Assembly: GCA_000002445.1 (NCBI GenBank)
Contig: CP000069.1
Coordinates: 512,001-576,000, forward strand
Direction: 5' to 3'
DNA: 64,000 nucleotides
DNA from: Trypanosoma brucei
Lineage: Eukaryota
Shown: positions 42,906 to 54,696 of the stretch, one piece after another
Numbering within the stretch: position 1 is the first letter of the stretch
Layout: every line of letters begins with the position of its first letter
Made by a program: the position numbers and the translations under genes
The notes under the pieces: model-generated
What the model saw: only the letters and a program-made list of their open reading frames with translations
The model's database searches: none
Told to the model about the DNA's origin: nothing

Positions 42906-43504
42906 AAATTTCGTTTCACCACTTTAGGTGACGAAATTTCCCGTTTTTTTTTTCCACTCCTATGTTTGTCTGGCACTTCGCGTTCGCAAATACAAGAAAA
43001 AGAGGGGTGGTGGCGGTGGTGGTGGTGGTAGTGAAAGAAAACGGAAGACAAATGGCCACAAGCACGACGTGTACGAGCTAAAAAACACGTACAAATAATG
43101 ATAATAATAATGATCCAGTTGTACAAATGCAACTGGGTTCCCCGGTACTGCCACCAACATCGTCGTCGCGTCAGACCCCAGTTCTCTTACGTCGGTAACG
43201 TACAACAAAAAAAAAACAGTAGTTAAGCAGCAAAACACCACTTTCGTTCCTTTTTCTTCCACCGCTAGTGGGAGCGCCCCCTGCGGTGTAATTTCATATC
43301 TGTGATGGTGGGGAAACATTTTCCACGAAGGCAAGAATAATGTAAATTAAAACCCGCCCTGCAAGTAGCAGATTATACTCGTGGCAAATAATACAGCATT
43401 TGCACCGTGCTGGTTATCTGTGACTCTTTGAGACAAACGCACAGATCAGCTGAATCATGACGTAACTTAAATGCATTTGTCCCGAGTGTTCATACAGATG
43501 CACA

Positions 43505-43507
<3 letters not shown>

Positions 43508-43553
<46 letters not shown>
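43508..43553. repeat. Compound microsatellite (TA)n followed by (TG)n.
   Basis: The run is catatatatatatatatatatatatatatatatgtgtgtgtgtgtgtgtac. Confidence 0.9.
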
Positions 43554-44534
43554 ACGCGTTGCTATCACCATTACTTTTCAGACAGCAAAGAAGAAAAGAG
43601 ACCGCAACATATTACAGTTCTATCGGTGGACCACCAATCTGAAAAAAAAAGGTGCAGTGAACATATTTGTGCACTATCAGCAACAGCACCTCCTCATTGG
43701 AACCGTAAAGATATGGTTAACTATCACCTCAACGATACGCTGAAGACAGCAGATTTTTAGCCTAGAAGTATGAAAGGGTCATATATCCTACAGTTATTTC
43801 ACCCTTATGATTGTTGCACTCGCTAGCGGGAGGCTACACAAAAAGACAACAGAAGAAATGTAATACAGAAGCCACAGAAATGCGCATAAAGGGTAGCGTA
43901 ACCGATAGATATTGAAAAAACAGCAACTGAAAGCTAAGGAAGCGTGTCCGTGTCTGTGTGATGGGTGAAAATGCCTCACATAATATAACGGTTAAAGAGC
44001 GTCGCACTGCCAGTTGATGTGGTGCTTGTACATTTAAACCCGCGTCCTCTATTTATTCTGCATTACTTGCAGAGTATCATTATCCACCACCAACTCACAG
44101 TCCCGCGCATTATTGCGCAGCGGGGGGGGGAGAGGGGAGTAGCGCGGCGAGGGATCACACCAGCAGAACTTAGGCCTAACAGCGCAGAGTGTTATTAAAA
44201 GAACACACGAAACAAGACCATAAGCACTGGAAGGTTTTTAAAAAAAATATCGATAAGAACAGTTAATCTTAGGGGAAAAAATAACGAATAATTTGATGTA
44301 TGGTTCATATACGTTACACACATTAAGTCCATCCATATCTAACAAGGGTAACAGGAACAAAGGGGAGTTTAAGTGACTACTGCCGCTAGTAGAATATTGC
44401 GTTAGAAAAATAAACCAGCGGACGTGGGCGGAGACAAACACATCACAAGTAGGGGAAATTTACCTGTCCTCTATGAGCCATCAGCCGATGCCCATGTTTA
44501 AAAAAATAAAACATTTCCCCACGGGATCGTCTAG

Positions 44535-45425
44535 TTATTTCCCCTTCTTTCGGAGCACGGTGTTGAGGTGTGTGGCCAAACGGTAACCTGCGAGCGTTAT
44601 GCGCTTTTCAGCCATCTCCTTGCATGCACTAATATACTCCTCTGACAATTCAGTTCCATTAACAACATTAGCGTACGCCACTTTCTTTGCAAAATTAGAG
44701 CCCTCCTTCGATATTGCGGTGGCGCCAGTTTTCTTTTTCTCGCCTTCTGAAAATTTGTACGTTGCAATCAGTTTAGTGGCAAAATCTCTAACTTTAGAGT
44801 AATCCTCCGTATTAAGGGGCCGCTCCAATGACTCTGAAGGACCCCGGCAAATGGAATCCCACACGGCATGGAGCTTCATTGGGACCCCTCTGAAATCCAC
44901 ATGCACCAAATTGCCACCCTGATCTCCTTCCGGATAATCAGCGGAAACCTGCGAAGTCGTATGCAGAGGTTGATGAATATCACCATAGTAATGTACGAGA
45001 TGGGCAAGGGCAAAGGATCGCACATATATGGGAGTATCTGTCCGTCTTAGTGCCTTCGACAAACCGTTGATAACACTTACAACATCGGACTTTTGTTTAA
45101 GAGTTACGTTCGGTTTAAAGCCATCCCTAATGTACATATTGGCCGTATAGTGCCAACCGTCCATGGCACCCATGCGGTAACGCTTCAAATCATCTGGCCA
45201 ACAGGCACTTTGAACGAAATCGGGAATATTCGGGAACGGCCCGCTTTCGCTCAAGTGTTGTATATATGTCTCAACCACCCTGGCTACATCATTGTCAAGG
45301 TTACGTCGGGCTATTTCAGCAACAACCATATGGCCGAAATCCCACCACCCATCAACAGCCGCTGGAATGAAGGAAGTAATCAGAGCCAAGGTTATGCAAA
45401 GTGATGAAAGTGATGGATTCTTCAT
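44535..45425 (-). CDS. S1/P1-type (class I) nuclease / 3'-nucleotidase-nuclease family protein with a signal peptide. This is paralogue 1 of a tandem pair.
   Basis: MKNPSLSSLCITLALITSFIPAAVDGWWDFGHMVVAEIARRNL carries the WGxxGH zinc-ligand start typical of P1/S1 nucleases. The track ORF (to 45533) begins at a GTG. The ATG at 45423-45425 matches the start of the downstream copy. Confidence 0.75.
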   Translation of the reverse strand: MKNPSLSSLCITLALITSFIPAAVDGWWDFGHMVVAEIARRNLDNDVARVVETYIQHLSESGPFPNIPDFVQSACWPDDLKRYRMGAMDGWHYTANMYIRDGFKPNVTLKQKSDVVSVINGLSKALRRTDTPIYVRSFALAHLVHYYGDIHQPLHTTSQVSADYPEGDQGGNLVHVDFRGVPMKLHAVWDSICRGPSESLERPLNTEDYSKVRDFATKLIATYKFSEGEKKKTGATAISKEGSNFAKKVAYANVVNGTELSEEYISACKEMAEKRITLAGYRLATHLNTVLRKKGK

Positions 45426-47145
45426 GGTGTTGAGATGTCTTCCCTTTTCGAGGTATTTCCCACTTTTCCTCTTTGTCAAGCGCTTACGGAAAACTGTATA
45501 AATTGTATCTGTAGTTTTTATTCGTGTGAACACCTACTACGGTCGGTTTGTATTCACCCTGATTGGTTTTCTACGAACAGTATCACATTGGTGAGACACA
45601 AGACAAAGAACCAAGGGTTAGGGGGCGTAAGTATTTGCGTTGACGATGAACGAATAGATAAAGGTAAAACAACCACAAAAAGGCAAGCCCCATTACAACT
45701 ACAACAGGTTATATTAGCATAACTTTTATAGTGGGGGGTGATTGGAGCAAACGAATATTTATATGGAAGTTGGCTTCAATAGACAAGCGCAAAAATTGAG
45801 CCACACTCCTAACGTGACGATGGCATTTGTACATGAAATCTACGGGATCCAGCAATCTCCACAATTCGGAGAGCGTCACCAAAAGGCCCACCACGGCACT
45901 GCACATCACAGCAGAGAGGAGAAGGCAACATAGGCAGGAAACCTGAACAACGAAGCCAAGAGGACAGCAACAGGAAACCCCGAGAACGGTCACAAATACC
46001 GTATCTGGTGTGCCCCGCAGCAGATAACGTGAGATGTACCAACGGTTTCGATTCCACCATATCCTTCACAAACCAGAGAACAACAAAGCGCAAGACAGAA
46101 AAAAGCATTAAACAAACATAGCAAGTGCTTACGCAACTTTTTCTTTACAAAATATAACGCACAAATTACGACTGCCTCACTGGTCTTCAGCAAACAGATG
46201 CTCATCACCTCCTACATAGTCCGGATTCGCTTCTCGTTTTTCCCCTCGCACTCTCAGCACGGTATTGAGATGTGTGGCCAAACGGTAACCTGCGAGCGTT
46301 ATGCGCTTTTCAGCCATCTCCTTGCATGCACTAATATACTCCTCTGACAATTCAGTTCCATTTACAACATTAGCGTACGCCACTTTCTTTGCTAACTCGA
46401 AACCCTCCCTTGACATGACAACTGGGTTGGTTTGTTCCTTCTCCTTTTGTGAAAATTTGTACGTTGCAATCAGTTTAGTGGCAAAACTCTTCAATCTTAT
46501 GTAATCTATTATGTTGAGGGGCCGCTCCAATGACTCTGAAGGACCCCGGCAAATGGAATCCCACACGGCATGGAGCTTCATTGGGACCCCTCTGAAATCC
46601 ACATGCACCAAATTGCCACCCTGATCTCCTTCCGGATAATCAGCGGAAACCTGCGAAGTCGTATGCAGAGGTTGATGAATATCACCATAGTAATGTACGA
46701 GATGGGCAAGGGCAAAGGATCGCACATATATGGGAGTATCTGTCCGTCTTAGTGCCTTCGACAAACCGTTGATAACACTTACAACATCGGACTTTTGTTT
46801 AAGAGTTACGTTCGGTTTAAAGCCATCCCTAATGTACATATTGGCCGTATAGTGCCAACCGTCCATGGCACCCATGCGGTAACGCTTCAAATCATCTGGC
46901 CAACAGGCACTTTGAACGAAATCGGGAATATTCGGGAACGGCCCGCTTTCGCTCAAGTGTTGTATATATGTCTCAACCACCCTGGCTACATCATTGTCAA
47001 GGTTACGTCGGGCTATTTCAGCGACAACCATATGGCCGAAATCCCACCATCCATCAACAGCCGCTGGAATGAAGGAAGTAATCAGAGCCAAGGTTATGCA
47101 AAGTGATGAAAGTGATGGATTCTTCATGGTGTTGAGATGTCTTCT
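44556..47145 (-). repeat. Tandem gene duplication with a 1,702-bp period: two near-identical S1/P1 nuclease units carrying a short divergent internal patch.
   Basis: Identical shadow ORFs lie 1,702 nt apart on the plus strand (44868..45050 and 46570..46752; 45093..45404 and 46795..47106, the latter differing by 2 aa). Identity breaks around 44690-44830 versus 46392-46530 and resumes on both sides. Confidence 0.85.
46177..47127 (-). CDS. S1/P1-type (class I) nuclease family protein with a signal peptide. This is paralogue 2 of the tandem pair and has a longer acidic C-terminal tail.
   Basis: The N-terminal roughly 230 aa are identical to copy 1. The C-terminus diverges (…VLRVRGEKREANPDYVGGDEHLFAEDQ). 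Confidence 0.75.
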   Translation of the reverse strand: MKNPSLSSLCITLALITSFIPAAVDGWWDFGHMVVAEIARRNLDNDVARVVETYIQHLSESGPFPNIPDFVQSACWPDDLKRYRMGAMDGWHYTANMYIRDGFKPNVTLKQKSDVVSVINGLSKALRRTDTPIYVRSFALAHLVHYYGDIHQPLHTTSQVSADYPEGDQGGNLVHVDFRGVPMKLHAVWDSICRGPSESLERPLNIIDYIRLKSFATKLIATYKFSQKEKEQTNPVVMSREGFELAKKVAYANVVNGTELSEEYISACKEMAEKRITLAGYRLATHLNTVLRVRGEKREANPDYVGGDEHLFAEDQ

Positions 47146-51440: not shown

Positions 51441-54400
51441 TTAGCAACCTCGCGCCACCGGCACAGTAACAGAAGCAGCAGTGTTCCCACTCCCCCCATC
51501 CCGTGATACGTCAAGGAACGGTGGTGGCGTTGGGGTGTGGACGGGTTCAAGAAGTGGTGAACTAAAAGAGTCCCGCCCTTCAGGAACGTACCAGCTGGTT
51601 TCCACACCGGTTGCCAGTAACTTATCCAACACCGTGTCAAACTTTCCCTCTTCCTTCAATTGCTGATATTTGCGATAGAGGCGAAGAGACGTTCGGGCAT
51701 CCTCTACAGAGTCGTGTTCACCTTCTTGCACACGCTCACCCAGTACATGATAGGCCAGGAAACGCAACGACAAATATCTGCCCCCAGGTCTGTGAAAGAG
51801 CGTGAGCGTATCAATCATCTGATTCGGAGGAACCGCAATATTACAAACACGGAAGTCCTGATGTAGACCATGACCAACAAATGTCACTGAACGGTCCACC
51901 AAAGCCCGCAGTTTAAGATAAGTTGCCTTGAGGCTTGTAAGACACTTGGATGACTCCAGTGGGTCAAGATCGCCTGGGTGGATGCCACTGTACTGAGTTC
52001 ACGTAGTCCAAAATTGCTTCCGGAGTGTGAACGTAGTCATCCACAATCGTTCGTTCGTCGCCTGGAGCACTGCTCAGTACGCAGCTCAGTCGTGCGAGTG
52101 CCATGTGTCGCTGTTGTGCCAAGTTACCGGGTGAATCCGTAACACATTGACGCTTGTTCCAATCAAGTACCACATACTCCGCATCAAGAGCAACAAGGTC
52201 CTCTGGCTTGATGTCGAGATGGGATCTCAGTGGCGACTTGAAACGCTGTATCGAAGGATTACGTTGCAGGGGCCTTGCCAGAACATCATTTATTAGTAGT
52301 GGACCCAACGTCTCAAACATATTTGGTGGTCGCTCACCATCCTCTGCGCTGTACAGTGGTGTGGACAATTTGTCAAGGGCATAAAACGAAACAACCGCAC
52401 GGTGCGAACGTAGGGCAGGCATGGATACCTCCAACTTTTGTTCATCATCTGACTTTGTTACGAGATAGTCGTTGACAAGGCTGAAACGATCATCCTCAAC
52501 GCGCTGGTGGCTAACGAAGTTCCCCGGGTCATCTGCGTCATTGGAAAGGTGGATGATATTGCTGCAAAGTAAATAATTGGAGTCATCTTTTGCATCACGC
52601 GAGATGCGGAGACACCTGGGTGGTTTTAGTGTTCCTCCCTCAGGGTTCAGTCGCAGTACGATGATGGGTGGAAGGCGCTTTATTTGTACGTTACTGTTGT
52701 GCCCCTCCAGTTGCTTCAATAAGTGCTGCAGTCCCTCATTGACCTTGATAGCAGACGCCGGAACATCCCAATAGAACCGAGGTTCCACATGAACTTTACC
52801 ACCAGATGAAAACTCCGTACCAAAAAGACTAGCTATCGACTTGTCAAAATCTCCACAAGGTTGCTTATGGTTCATAAATGGATACTCCTTCTCGTCCTGC
52901 AGACCACGATGTAATGCTTCGAGCAACACCAGTTGCGCCATGTGCATCCGCTTCACCGCTTCATCACGGGATTTTATTGGCTCGAAAAGTGGGGCAGCGG
53001 AAGGACACCTGTACATAGTACGGATGAGATTCCCCACTTGTACAATGGGATTAAGACCAGCTACTGAAGTCATCATCATGTTAGAAAACACGAATGCAAT
53101 TTCACAGGCGATGCAATACTCCTTCGCACAAATATGATGCACGACCACCCTACGGACAGGGAATTCCTTCGGGTGACACAGGTACAGAGACTGAAGCAAT
53201 GTTGTAATCCAGCACTCAGGAAAACTATTATCGAGCCCAACAACAACCTTCGGAATCCTATTGTACTTTTCCCACTCGAATCGCTGATGTGACCCATAAC
53301 ACACGAGGTTAGCGGCATCTTGCGGCACGTAGTTGTCGGCAACCCCTCCGCGAAAGGTGCTCTGCCGCCGCTTCTTCTCCTTGTTCAGTTCCAATAGCAA
53401 GTGCTGCACCGCTGCAGGATCGTTCCCCAACATTAAATTATACGGATATGGATTCGGAAGGAGTGGTGCGAGTTTGTCTCTTGGGTCAGGGAGATATGAA
53501 TCAGAGCGCCGGAGGCCCCATCGATTGGGCTCATAAGTCCACGACTCCCCGTTGACACAACACGTCGAAGGAGCCACTTGTAAGATCATGTAGTTTTCCG
53601 GTGGCCAGTTGGAGGCGAGTTCCTCAACAGGTACAGACTCGTCGAAGAACGCAAACGTGTCACCTTCCTTATCTTCCCAGCGCGCTGTAAAGACGGGGTT
53701 AACAGGGCGCTTCGGTTGTACGAATCGAGACATGACGTAGTCCTCACGTGTTGCTGGATGGCCAAGAGCCATGAAGTGACCCTTATCGTTCCCTATTGCA
53801 GCGCACATTGCGTTGGGCGATACGCTCACCGAGGTGCAGGCGTCGTCAAACAATCCACTTGAGCTGTAGACGGGTGTTGTTTGATCCATCTGGACAATGT
53901 GAAACCCGCGTGAAGTCAACACGAAAGCACGGTCGGGCAACACACCAAAAGGGTCACGATAACGACGAACTTGCGAAATACTGTCTGACGGTATACCATT
54001 AATGGTGTTGAGCGGTTCAGCCATCTTCCGTACATCATACACACGAACGCTACTCGTCATATTCCGCTCCACCACGGCAGCAATGACCGTTTCGTCGTCT
54101 GCGTCCATGGCGAGCACACGGTTGCGAGACGACGGTATGGAAGCAACCACCTGAAGTTCGTTTGCATCTCGTACCACGATGCCGCCTGACGTGGCGCCTG
54201 TAATAACCCACTTGCTTGTCTGTCTCAACGACACCACCTTGCCTTCCATGAGGGGAACGGTTACGTGATTACACGCGGTTCCGTCGCTGATGGACATTCG
54301 CGTTAGTCCAACATCACCAACGATACTCACCACACCTGTATCGCCGTTTGCCTGAAAAAGTTCAATATGGTCCTGTGACTGTGGTGGAAGAGGGCAATAC

Positions 54401-54696
54401 ATGCACTGCGCACCGCCTCGTTTGTAACCCCGAATAACATCATGGTCTGCCACCATTCCTACCGTCTCATTGCCCATCCTTAGGAAAAAGATCCCAAAGA
54501 TAGGCCTTGTGGATGCGGCAAATGAGGAATACACCGCCCACGAAAGAGTATCCGTTTGACTCTGCGTGGTGAAACTCATCAAGCGACCAAAACTGTCCCC
54601 GACCCATAAAAGTTCCACATCGGGGTCGAACTCAATCGCATTGACAATACCAACAAATGCTTGAACGCTACCTCGAACCTTCCACGGAACGCTCAT
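51441..54696 (-). CDS. PAN2: PAN2 poly(A)-specific ribonuclease catalytic subunit (WD40 region, then a UCH-like region, then a DEDDh exonuclease). In this sequence the reading frame is interrupted by an apparent +1 frameshift near 51993.
   Basis: The 910-aa ORF 51964..54696 carries exonuclease motif I (LVALDAEYVVLD) and motif II (DDYVHTPEAILDYVNS) and then hits a stop. The next frame (ORF 51441..51902, which is open upstream to about 51990) continues with YSGIHPGDLD...FVGHGLHQDFRV...EGEHDSVEDARTSLRLYRKY. That aligns colinearly with my recollection of human PAN2 (YSGIKPGDLD...FVGHGLQKDFRV...HDSIEDARTALQLYRKY). The junction is DYVNS|g|YSGI, that is, one extra base on the coding strand. Confidence 0.75.

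What the first reader, a model, noticed from the sequence alone, without database searches (positions are those of the whole stretch)
44535..47145. Tandem pair of secreted S1/P1-type nucleases with a mosaic identity pattern suggestive of gene conversion
Two class I nuclease genes sit 1,702 bp apart, head to tail. Their N-terminal two-thirds are identical at the nucleotide level, and the flanking shadow ORFs are identical too. An internal patch of about 130 bp is strongly diverged (44690-44830 versus 46392-46530; protein NTEDYSKVRDFATKLIATYKFSEGEKKKTGATAISKEGSNF versus NIIDYIRLKSFATKLIATYKFSQKEKEQTNPVVMSREGFEL). Identity then resumes up to the last roughly 6 residues. Copy 2 ends in a longer acidic tail. 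Identical sequence on both sides of a diverged patch is hard to explain by simple duplication followed by drift. It points to ongoing gene conversion with a protected or selected variable segment, possibly a surface-exposed loop. Both copies carry signal peptides, consistent with ecto or secreted 3'-nucleotidase/nucleases used for purine salvage.
Basis: seen in the sequence. Interest (0 to 1): 0.55.

Follow-up and report, generated by a model that had tools for sequence, protein, structure and literature searches.

The report
Tandem nuclease genes homogenised except two patches
Two neighbouring Trypanosoma brucei genes for secreted zinc nucleases are kept almost identical by copying sequence from one to the other, except for two short surface-coding patches as different as between distant species; this is a clear but ordinary case of a process already known in this parasite.

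Summary
The window is T. brucei TREU927 chromosome 6. Two S1/P1 (class I) nuclease genes lie head to tail exactly 1,702 bp apart on the minus strand.

- **Extent of homology:** it runs only from 17 nt upstream of the ATG to about nt 872 of the coding sequence. The flanks show no detectable similarity.
- **Mosaic:** 44 of the 49 differences fall in 88 nt, at nt 612-641 and 678-735 (P about 1e-38). In these patches pS is 0.82 and pN 0.41, as deep as against T. vivax or the distant paralog. Elsewhere pS is 0.025.
- **Other genomes:**
  - gambiense DAL972 has lost the second patch type.
  - equiperdum has three copies, including hybrids.
  - Copies within a strain share strain-specific variants.
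  - T. vivax (same locus) and T. melophagium (other locus) also carry homogenised pairs with different C-terminal tails.

This is concerted evolution by gene conversion and unequal crossing-over of an old duplicate pair. The patches lie in the most variable region of the family, a helix-loop-helix that is probably surface-exposed. They align with a secondary ssDNA-binding site and a glycosylated helix of the plant enzyme AtBFN2.

Selection protecting the patches is not shown, and a divergence barrier to recombination explains them equally well. The case is a new member of a known kind and of modest interest.

The parts
46177..47127 (-). Inferred to be Tb927.6.1650. Patch type B/B and a long acidic C-terminal tail.
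   Evidence: Pfam S1-P1_nuclease E = 6e-68. Exact match to the TREU927 protein. The gene ID is inferred from gene order and from memory that PAN2 is Tb927.6.1670; the papers are consistent with it.
44535..45425 (-). Inferred to be Tb927.6.1640. Patch type A/A and a short basic C-terminus (KKGK).
   Evidence: Pfam E = 1.3e-67. The start is taken at the ATG at 45425, where homology and the signal peptide begin.
46256..47144 (-). Homogenised block of the upstream copy, from nt -17 to +872 relative to the ATG.
   Evidence: Identity with the other copy starts 17 nt upstream of the ATG and ends at about codon 291.
44554..45442 (-). Homogenised block of the downstream copy, from nt -17 to +872.
46487..46516 (-). 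Sub-patch 1, type B (codons 204-214, LNIIDYIRLKS). It forms the N-terminal half of helix 206-222 and is the derived version compared with outgroups.
44785..44814 (-). Sub-patch 1, type A (LNTEDYSKVRD). It is outgroup-like. A close variant is present in equiperdum copy 2, and a finer A/B mixture in copy 3.
46393..46449 (-). Sub-patch 2, type B (codons 227-245, QKEKEQTNPVVMSREGFEL). It covers the short helix 227-231, a loop, and the start of helix 235-250. It is outgroup-like.
44691..44747 (-). Sub-patch 2, type A (EGEKKKTGATAISKEGSNF). Among the seven T. brucei copies examined it is seen only in this TREU927 copy.
45443..46255 (-). Inter-copy spacer. It holds the tail-coding end and 3' flank of the upstream copy and the 5' flank of the downstream copy. 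It is unrelated to the sequence upstream of the pair or downstream of it.
   Evidence: local alignment scores are no better than shuffled sequence (z = 0.5 and -0.5); two 5' flank types and two 3' flank types are conserved across strains.
47050..47127 (-). Signal-peptide coding segment (MKNPSLSSLCITLALITSFIPAAVDG) of the upstream copy. The same segment in the downstream copy is at 45348-45425. Predicted cleavage exposes Trp27, the zinc-binding N-terminal Trp of the family.
   Evidence: Direct reading of the sequence. W27 is nearly invariant in 85 homologs. The solved enzymes start at this Trp. The segment has low pLDDT in the models.
46177..46254 (-). Copy-specific C-terminal tail of the upstream copy (VRGEKREANPDYVGGDEHLFAEDQ). 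It is acidic and predicted to be disordered.
   Evidence: One search gives pLDDT below 50 for residues 306-316.

Best explanation
These are two old tandem duplicates of a secreted, zinc-dependent S1/P1 (class I) nuclease gene. Their coding cores are repeatedly overwritten from one another by gene conversion, and their copy number changes by unequal crossing-over.

Only the coding core has stayed similar enough to recombine. The untranslated flanks and the C-terminal tails have diverged beyond recognition. They probably give each copy its own regulation and its own tail.

The two short divergent patches are leftovers of the old divergence between the duplicates. They lie in the least constrained stretch of the protein, which is probably surface-exposed. 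About 50% nucleotide mismatch there stops heteroduplex extension or leads to its rejection, so conversion tracts tend to end at the patch borders. Occasionally a tract or a patchy repair event does cross them. That explains the gambiense state (both copies type B) and the equiperdum hybrids.

Shown:
- the mosaic itself;
- saturated synonymous divergence inside the patches against near zero outside;
- non-homologous flanks;
- within-strain sharing of variants;
- strain-to-strain differences in tract limits and copy number;
- an intact catalytic set and the same predicted fold for both versions.

Inferred:
- the age of the duplication;
- the barrier mechanism;
- secretion;
- the biological role in nucleic-acid scavenging.
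For: 1. Family. Pfam S1-P1_nuclease at 1e-67. All nine zinc ligands (W27, H32, D78, H92, H145, D149, H155, H186, D190) are present and invariant or nearly so in 85 homologs. The AF2 models have pLDDT 89-92 and match AtBFN2, SmNuc1, TBN1, S1 and P1.
2. Mosaic. 44 of 49 differences lie in 88 nt, P = 1.7e-38. Third-position differences are 20 of 29 inside the patches against 5 of 261 outside.
3. Depth. Patch pS is 0.82 and pN 0.41. That equals the divergence from the third paralog, T. vivax and T. melophagium (pS 0.78-0.95, pN 0.35-0.44). The rest of the gene has pS 0.025 and pN 0.
4. Flanks. No similarity between the three flanking segments of the two copies. A simple recent tandem duplication would leave the spacer repeated on one side, so it is excluded.
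5. Concerted evolution.
- nt 333, 336 and 822 are shared by both TREU927 copies and differ in all gambiense and equiperdum copies.
- nt 851 is shared by both gambiense copies only.
- Within-strain core differences are 1-6, against 8-12 between positional orthologs of TREU927 and gambiense.
6. Variable tract ends.
- gambiense carries type B in both patches of both copies.
- equiperdum copy 2 is A'/B, and copy 3 is a finer A/B mixture.
- The gambiense downstream copy has a hybrid C-terminus created at a GGGGAAA junction.
7. Copy number. There are 2 copies in TREU927 and gambiense and 3 in equiperdum.
8. Same architecture elsewhere. T. vivax has a pair at the syntenic locus with a block from -91 to +902 at 99.1% identity. 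T. melophagium has a pair at the other locus, 100% identical over 1,046 nt. Both have different tails.
9. Position of the patch. It coincides with the highest-entropy 30-residue window of the domain. Positions that are conserved across the family and fit a buried helix face change only conservatively (V212L, I238M).
10. Mechanism in this organism. T. brucei homologous recombination is impeded by mismatches and shows short-patch mismatch repair (PMC1904282). Mosaics and concerted evolution are documented for its larger tandem arrays (PMC1855330; PMC2854126).
Against: - The 36 nt between the two sub-patches are identical although that stretch is also variable across the family. A pure relic model therefore needs a very short conversion tract or patchy repair there.
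- If conversion can erase the patches within the time separating T. brucei subspecies, their survival since a duplication possibly older than the T. vivax split is hard to explain without some selection against erasure.
- Each TREU927 copy carries one outgroup-like and one strongly derived sub-patch. This could reflect accelerated, selected change.
- The age of the duplication is not fixed. The T. vivax pair could be an independent duplication.
- Type A of sub-patch 2 was seen only in the TREU927 reference.
- Only three T. brucei genomes were available, and the equiperdum assembly has indel errors.
Confidence: 0.6

Rival explanations
1. Same gene-conversion background, but the patches are kept different by selection. 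Under this reading they form part of an accessory nucleic-acid-binding or otherwise interacting surface. The two versions give the two enzymes different substrate handling, partners or antigenicity, and conversion events that erase the difference are usually removed.
For: - Patch divergence is as deep as between species while the flanks are homogenised. Erasure does occur on the subspecies time scale, so long survival suggests counter-selection.
- AtBFN2 Lys201, which contacts the ssDNA backbone in the crystallographic secondary site (PMC4144908), aligns with K230 inside sub-patch 2.
- Both versions keep the predicted fold and keep the positions that are conserved across the family, so both are functional-looking.
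- Each copy has one strongly derived sub-patch.
Against: - gambiense has type B in both copies, and equiperdum has lost type A of sub-patch 2. The dimorphism is therefore dispensable in at least some lineages.
- pN/pS is about 0.5 with saturated pS, which gives no signal of positive selection.
- The region is the least constrained in the family.
- The alignment to AtBFN2 is at about 23% identity, and no coordinates could be inspected.
- T. vivax and T. melophagium pairs show no dimorphism at this place.
Confidence: 0.25
2. The pair is recently duplicated or recently fully homogenised. One or both patches were then pasted in by short-tract ectopic conversion from a diverged S1/P1 donor elsewhere in the genome.
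For: - Segmental, short-tract conversion is well known in T. brucei (VSG mosaics; PMC2854126).
- The patches are short (30 and 57 nt) with sharp borders.
- The patches retain family-typical residues (Y209, E229, K230, T233, E241, G242), so any donor would be an S1/P1 gene.
Against: - The protein search found only one other T. brucei S1/P1 cluster, the third paralog, reported in the literature as Tb927.6.2890.
- Against that paralog both patch types are as diverged as the rest of the gene (pS 0.81-0.92, pN 0.35-0.38).
- No other copy of either patch sequence occurs in the 64-kb window at up to 3 mismatches.
- Non-homologous flanks argue for an old pair.
Confidence: 0.1
3. Assembly artefact, or recent duplication followed by local hypermutation. 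Either one copy is a mis-assembled duplicate, or the patch arose by clustered mutation after a young duplication.
For: - Near-identical tandem repeats are prone to collapse or expansion in assemblies.
- The equiperdum third copy carries frameshifts typical of long-read errors.
Against: - Three independent assemblies (TREU927, DAL972, equiperdum) show at least two copies at 1,702-1,704 bp spacing, with the same two 5' flank types and two 3' flank types.
- Type A of sub-patch 1 recurs in equiperdum.
- 6 of the 10 conserved amino acids inside the patches carry silent changes, against 2 changed codons of 203 upstream. Selection on amino acids or a short burst of mutation does not explain this well.
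- The substitutions respect the positions that are conserved across the family.
Confidence: 0.03

Closest known systems
Concerted evolution and sequence mosaics in T. brucei tandem gene arrays (Jackson 2007, PMC1855330; Jackson et al. 2010, PMC2854126)
   Same: Tandem duplicates in one polycistronic unit. Copies within a genome are more alike than positional orthologs. Gene-conversion breakpoints lie near coding-sequence boundaries, mosaics are subspecies-specific, and copy number varies.
   Different: Those surveys covered arrays of more than three copies and do not mention this nuclease pair ('nuclease' occurs 0 times in both papers). Here there are only two copies, the flanks are completely unrelated, and the divergence is confined to two tiny islands as deep as interspecies divergence.
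Leishmania class I nucleases: secreted LdNuc-s, surface 3'-nucleotidase/nuclease, ER-located P4/LmC1N (review PMC8554303)
   Same: Same S1/P1 family (36-43% identity to Leishmania and related trypanosomatid homologs). N-terminal signal peptide. Stage-regulated paralogs with different C-terminal ends. The T. brucei pair lacks a hydrophobic C-terminus, like the secreted LdNuc-s.
   Different: No activity, location or role has been measured for the T. brucei pair. 3'-NT/NU has a C-terminal membrane anchor, which both tandem copies lack. The third T. brucei paralog does have a hydrophobic C-terminus. I found no report of a mosaic pair in Leishmania.
Solved S1/P1 nucleases: AtBFN2/ENDO2 (3W52, 4CXO), SmNuc1 (8QJL), TBN1 (3SNG), S1 (5FB9), P1 (1AK0)
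   Same: All-helical fold around a trinuclear zinc site with all nine ligands and an N-terminal Trp. Profile E-values are 1e-29 to 1e-42. Foldseek probability is 1.0 with target-normalised TM 0.71-0.79.
   Different: Only 20-25% identity. The patch region is the part of the family that varies most in length and sequence, and it is shorter in SmNuc1. The match of K230 to AtBFN2 Lys201, and of helix 206-222 to the helix carrying the Asn184 glycan, rests on sequence alignment only.
Islands of divergence in duplicates that undergo gene conversion, such as primate red/green opsins and RHD/RHCE, and the Teshima-Innan models (from my own knowledge, not checked here)
   Same: Homogenised duplicates with small regions that stay different.
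   Different: In those cases selection on the divergent sites is documented. Here it is not.

Membership tests
S1/P1 (class I) zinc nuclease family, Pfam PF02265 | Significant match to the family profile over the whole domain | tested here: met
   E = 1.3e-67 and 6e-68, profile positions 1-257 of 258, against a cut-off of 29.5 bits.
S1/P1 (class I) zinc nuclease family, Pfam PF02265 | Nine ligands of the trinuclear zinc cluster (P1 numbering W1, H6, D45, H60, H116, D120, H126, H149, D153) | tested here: met
   W27, H32, D78, H92, H145, D149, H155, H186 and D190 are present in both copies and invariant or nearly so in 85 homologs. The correspondence to P1 numbering is from family knowledge and the alignments.
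S1/P1 (class I) zinc nuclease family, Pfam PF02265 | Mature N-terminus is the zinc-binding Trp, exposed by signal-peptide cleavage | tested here: inconclusive
   The sequence MKNPSLSSLCITLALITSFIPAAVDG|WWDFGH has the n, h and c regions of a signal peptide, with V at -3 and G at -1. Solved chains start at the aligned Trp. No signal-peptide predictor or experiment was available.
S1/P1 (class I) zinc nuclease family, Pfam PF02265 | Helical phospholipase C / P1 nuclease fold | tested here: met
   AF2 pLDDT 89.3 and 91.9. The top 21 Foldseek hits are all S1/P1 nucleases, followed by zinc phospholipases C.
S1/P1 (class I) zinc nuclease family, Pfam PF02265 | Zinc-dependent cleavage of single-stranded nucleic acids and 3'-nucleotidase activity | not testable with these tools
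   Needs enzyme assays.
Concerted evolution of tandem duplicates by gene conversion | Paralogs within a genome are more alike than positional orthologs between genomes, and share lineage-specific variants | tested here: met
   nt 333, 336 and 822 (TREU927) and nt 851 (gambiense) are shared by both copies of one strain. Core differences are 1-6 within strains, against 8-12 between positional orthologs of TREU927 and gambiense. T. vivax and T. brucei both have a pair at the syntenic locus, yet the copies cluster by species.
Concerted evolution of tandem duplicates by gene conversion | Identity extends to synonymous sites and ends abruptly, and the flanks are not homologous | tested here: met
Concerted evolution of tandem duplicates by gene conversion | Tract end-points differ among related genomes (ongoing process) | tested here: met
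   the patch states differ in the three genomes, and the gambiense downstream copy has a hybrid C-terminus.
Selection-maintained island of divergence | Excess of non-synonymous change, or another population-genetic signature of selection in the island | tested here: inconclusive
   pN 0.41 and pS 0.82 (saturated) over 30 codons. No population sample was available.
Selection-maintained island of divergence | The dimorphism is retained in all lineages that keep both genes | tested here: not met
   gambiense DAL972 has type B in both copies. equiperdum has type B of sub-patch 2 in all three copies.
Leishmania-type surface 3'-nucleotidase/nuclease (membrane-anchored) | C-terminal transmembrane anchor | tested here: not met
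   The tails are KKGK and VRGEKREANPDYVGGDEHLFAEDQ, with no hydrophobic stretch. The third paralog, P0003, does end in a hydrophobic stretch.

The most novel reading that the evidence does not exclude
The two patch versions are an ancient dimorphism, maintained by balancing selection, of an accessory nucleic-acid-binding surface. It would be older than the T. brucei / T. vivax split and would have survived continual homogenisation of the rest of the gene. The two neighbouring enzymes would then have different substrate handling or partners. Together with their different tails and untranslated regions, this would make them two functionally distinct secreted nucleases.
Probability: 0.15. Interest if true: 0.5.

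Novelty: new member of a known kind. Interest (0 to 1): 0.3.

Why it matters
The pair is a compact, well-delimited example of how gene conversion shapes trypanosome gene families.
- It has 890 bp of homogenised core, two islands of 30 and 57 nt with interspecies-level divergence, unrelated flanks, and natural recombinants in sister subspecies.
- It could serve as a small natural test system for conversion tract length and mismatch tolerance in T. brucei.
- It flags a 40-residue surface segment and the C-terminal tails as the only places where the two secreted nucleases can differ in function.
- It does not change what is known about the enzyme family or about concerted evolution in this parasite.

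Tried and rejected
- **Third paralog as donor of a patch:** rejected. Its patch region is as diverged from A and B as the rest of the gene.
- **A donor elsewhere in the window:** none found at up to 3 mismatches.
- **Residual homology of the flanks:** local alignment against shuffles gave nothing. A simple recent tandem duplication is therefore rejected.
- **Compensating frameshifts as the cause of the patches:** rejected by eye. The two versions do not match at any offset, and GATTAC stays in register.
- **dN/dS in the patch:** uninformative because synonymous sites are saturated.
- **Trans-specific signal (A with T. congolense, B with T. vivax):** not supported.
  - T. congolense is 47% identical to both types in sub-patch 2.
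  - Type B of sub-patch 2 and type A of sub-patch 1 are simply closer to all outgroups.
- **Solvent exposure and distance to the zinc site:** I used secondary structure, conservation periodicity and alignment to AtBFN2 instead.
- **TREU927 DNA of the third paralog:** not on record, so the gambiense copy was used.
- **Literature:** no paper describing this pair's mosaic was found. The gene IDs appear only in two omics papers.
Full report
**What is there**

The window is from Trypanosoma brucei brucei TREU927, on a 1,618,915-bp chromosome record. Both predicted proteins match XP_845286 and XP_845287 exactly; both are annotated 'single strand-specific nuclease, putative'. All ORFs of 250 aa or more in the window are on the minus strand, as expected for one polycistronic unit.

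The upstream gene (copy 2) is 46177-47127, 316 aa.

From gene order and my recollection that PAN2 is Tb927.6.1670, I infer these are Tb927.6.1640 and Tb927.6.1650. The order is PAN2-like gene, a 570-aa axonemal protein gene, the two nucleases, then a mitochondrial-carrier gene. One proteomics paper lists Tb927.6.1650 with Tb927.6.2890 among 'nucleic acid-binding' proteins that rise early in bloodstream-to-procyclic differentiation (PMC4765897). Another calls Tb927.6.2890 a single strand-specific nuclease (PMC8648117), and a third places Tb927.6.1660 in the axoneme (PMC11971395). The IDs remain an inference.

The two genes align at an offset of exactly 1,702 bp without indels.

| Codons | Differences between the copies |
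|---|---|
| 1-203 | 2 synonymous changes |
| 204-214 | 49% nucleotide identity |
| 215-226 | identical |
| 227-245 | 53% nucleotide identity |
| 246-290 | 3 synonymous changes |
| from 291-293 | sequences unrelated |

In nt 1-872, 44 of 49 differences fall in 88 nt (binomial P = 1.7e-38). A 506-nt run without a difference was never reached in 100,000 permutations. Third-codon positions differ at 20 of 29 sites inside the patches and at 5 of 261 outside.

- The patch is two sub-patches separated by 36 identical nt.
- The N-terminal two-thirds are nearly identical, not identical.
- The 'shadow ORFs' are antisense ORFs inside the genes and differ at two residues.
- The true start of copy 1 is the ATG at 45425, not the GTG at 45533.

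**Both genes look functional**

Both hit Pfam S1-P1_nuclease end to end at about 1e-67. All nine zinc ligands are present and conserved in an 85-sequence alignment.

The N-terminus reads as a signal peptide whose cleavage would expose Trp27. The solved enzymes begin at the aligned Trp. Neither tail is hydrophobic, so the products are predicted to be soluble secretory proteins, like Leishmania LdNuc-s and unlike the membrane-anchored 3'-NT/NU (PMC8554303).

AlphaFold2 models of both copies are confident (pLDDT 89.3 and 91.9). They have the same secondary structure in the patch: helix 206-222, helix 227-231 and helix 235-250, at pLDDT 94-98. Foldseek returns only S1/P1 nucleases at the top.

**Gene conversion is strongly supported**

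1. Homology is confined to nt -17 to about +872. The sequence upstream of the pair, the spacer and the sequence downstream show no similarity beyond shuffled controls. A plain tandem duplication would leave the spacer repeated on one side, so a recent simple duplication is excluded.

2. The contrast lies at silent sites. pS is 0.025 outside the patches and 0.82 inside. Purifying selection therefore cannot explain the identity.

3. Other genomes show the process at work.
- T. b. gambiense DAL972 has two copies 1,704 bp apart, and both carry patch type B.
- T. b. equiperdum has three copies. The first is B/B, the second A'/B, and the third a finer A/B mixture in sub-patch 1 with B in sub-patch 2.
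- The third equiperdum copy has frameshifts, possibly assembly errors.
- The same two 5' flank types and two 3' flank types recur in all strains. The array is therefore upstream flank - core - spacer - core - downstream flank, with one extra core-plus-spacer unit in equiperdum. That is the expected product of unequal crossing-over.

4. Copies within a strain share strain-specific variants: nt 333, 336 and 822 in TREU927, and nt 851 in gambiense. Core differences are 1-6 within strains, against 8-12 between positional orthologs of TREU927 and gambiense.

5. The gambiense downstream copy has a hybrid C-terminus (…VRGEITRRSRGEMFYFF). It was created where the two tail types share GGGGAAA, which shows a different 3' tract end.

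Independent assemblies with unique flanks also rule out an assembly artefact.

**How old are the patches?**

In the 30 patch codons the two neighbours differ by pS 0.82 and pN 0.41. Either one differs from the third T. brucei paralog, T. vivax and T. melophagium by pS 0.78-0.95 and pN 0.35-0.44, so the depth is the same. The third paralog lies on the same chromosome and is about 60% identical.

The third paralog is not the donor. No other copy of either patch exists in the window. The protein database holds only these two T. brucei S1/P1 clusters.

At the syntenic locus, T. vivax also has a tandem pair. Its homogenised block runs from -91 to +902 at 99.1% identity. Five of its eight differences cluster in nt 764-783, and the tails differ. 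T. melophagium has a pair at the other locus, between a kinesin gene and an HD-domain gene. That pair is 100% identical over 1,046 nt and again has different tails.

The family is thus repeatedly found as homogenised pairs that differ in the tail. The T. brucei pair may predate the split from T. vivax, but an independent duplication cannot be excluded.

**Where the patches sit**

Across 82 homologs (the three T. brucei tandem-copy sequences left out), the eight most variable 30-residue windows of the domain start at residues 204-211. Patch columns have higher entropy than the rest (2.74 against 2.08 bits, P = 1.5e-4).

Positions that are conserved across the family and show helical periodicity (212, 216, 219, 223, 238, 241, 242, 246) are unchanged or change conservatively (V/L, I/M). 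The radical changes fall on the variable positions, which are presumably exposed.

By phmmer and profile alignment, K230 in sub-patch 2 aligns with AtBFN2 Lys201. In the crystal, Lys201 contacts the ssDNA backbone in the secondary binding site (PMC4144908). Helix 206-222 aligns with the AtBFN2 helix that carries the Asn184 glycan. The S1 'Half-Tyr' accessory site (Glu177 and Tyr183; PMC5201275) would fall just upstream of sub-patch 1. That placement relies on my recollection of the S1 sequence, and I did not verify it.

I could not inspect coordinates. 'Surface-exposed and possibly part of an accessory binding surface' is therefore an inference.

**Why the islands persist**

Two readings fit, and both rest on gene conversion.

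- **Relic plus barrier (preferred).** The least constrained segment diverged most between the old duplicates. About 50% mismatch then blocks or aborts heteroduplex formation. In T. brucei, homologous recombination is impeded by mismatches, and mismatches can be repaired in short patches (PMC1904282). This accounts for sharp borders, fine mosaics and occasional erasure.
- **Selection against erasure.** This is suggested by the contrast between very deep divergence and erasure seen within subspecies time. It is also suggested by each TREU927 copy having one outgroup-like and one strongly derived sub-patch.

Against selection, gambiense and equiperdum have lost type A wholly or in part, pN/pS is uninformative, and other species' pairs show no dimorphism here.

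**Comparison with what is known**

Concerted evolution, conversion breakpoints near coding-sequence boundaries and subspecies-specific mosaics are documented for T. brucei arrays of more than three copies (PMC1855330; PMC2854126). Neither paper mentions this nuclease pair, and I found no paper that describes it.

The enzyme family is well known. The case is therefore a new, clean member of a known kind. It is useful as a small natural test system for conversion tracts and as a pointer to where the two enzymes can differ, but a specialist would not find it surprising.

Noticed in passing
window 51964-54696 (minus strand), insertion at about 51999: The PAN2-like gene (UCH_1 plus RNase_T domains) is cut to 910 aa by a 1-nt insertion (GTGAACTCAG against GTG-ACTCAG in T. 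b. gambiense, where the gene is 1,084 aa). The frameshift lies inside the exonuclease domain. It could be a reference sequencing error or a real strain difference.
   Followed up: partly
L002 4297-5247, 6001-6951, 7701-8592: T. b. equiperdum carries three copies of the nuclease gene instead of two. The third was not called as a gene and has several frameshifts and a 3-nt deletion in sub-patch 1. It may be a pseudogene or the result of long-read indel errors.
   Followed up: partly
L005 6001-7005 and 7836-8785: T. vivax has a tandem nuclease pair at the syntenic locus (PAN2 ... mitochondrial carrier). Five of its eight differences cluster in nt 764-783 and change DGVDNNT to AGVDNDG, which removes an N-glycosylation sequon. 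The second copy is split by a 1-nt deletion at nt 308.
   Followed up: partly
L004 6001-6960 and 7606-8601: T. melophagium has a tandem pair at the other S1/P1 locus (kinesin ... HD-domain gene), which is syntenic with the single third paralog of T. brucei (L003). The pair is 100% identical from -143 to +903 and then has unrelated tails, one of them hydrophobic.
   Followed up: partly
L001 7705-8625: The gambiense downstream copy has a 9-nt deletion in the signal peptide (it loses SLS). It also has a new C-terminus (EITRRSRGEMFYFF), produced by a one-base frame change at the GGGGAAA junction that reads through the TREU927 stop codon.
   Followed up: yes
L003 3001-3981; proteins P0003, P0126, P0127: The third S1/P1 paralog, reported in the literature as Tb927.6.2890, differs in annotated length between strains: 326 aa with a hydrophobic C-terminus in gambiense, 276 aa in TREU927 and 228 aa in equiperdum. 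This suggests truncations or annotation differences.
   Followed up: no
window about 43471-43743: A spurious plus-strand ORF translating as ...HMHIYIYIYIYICVCVCV... points to a TA/TG dinucleotide repeat in the 3' flank of the downstream nuclease gene.
   Followed up: no
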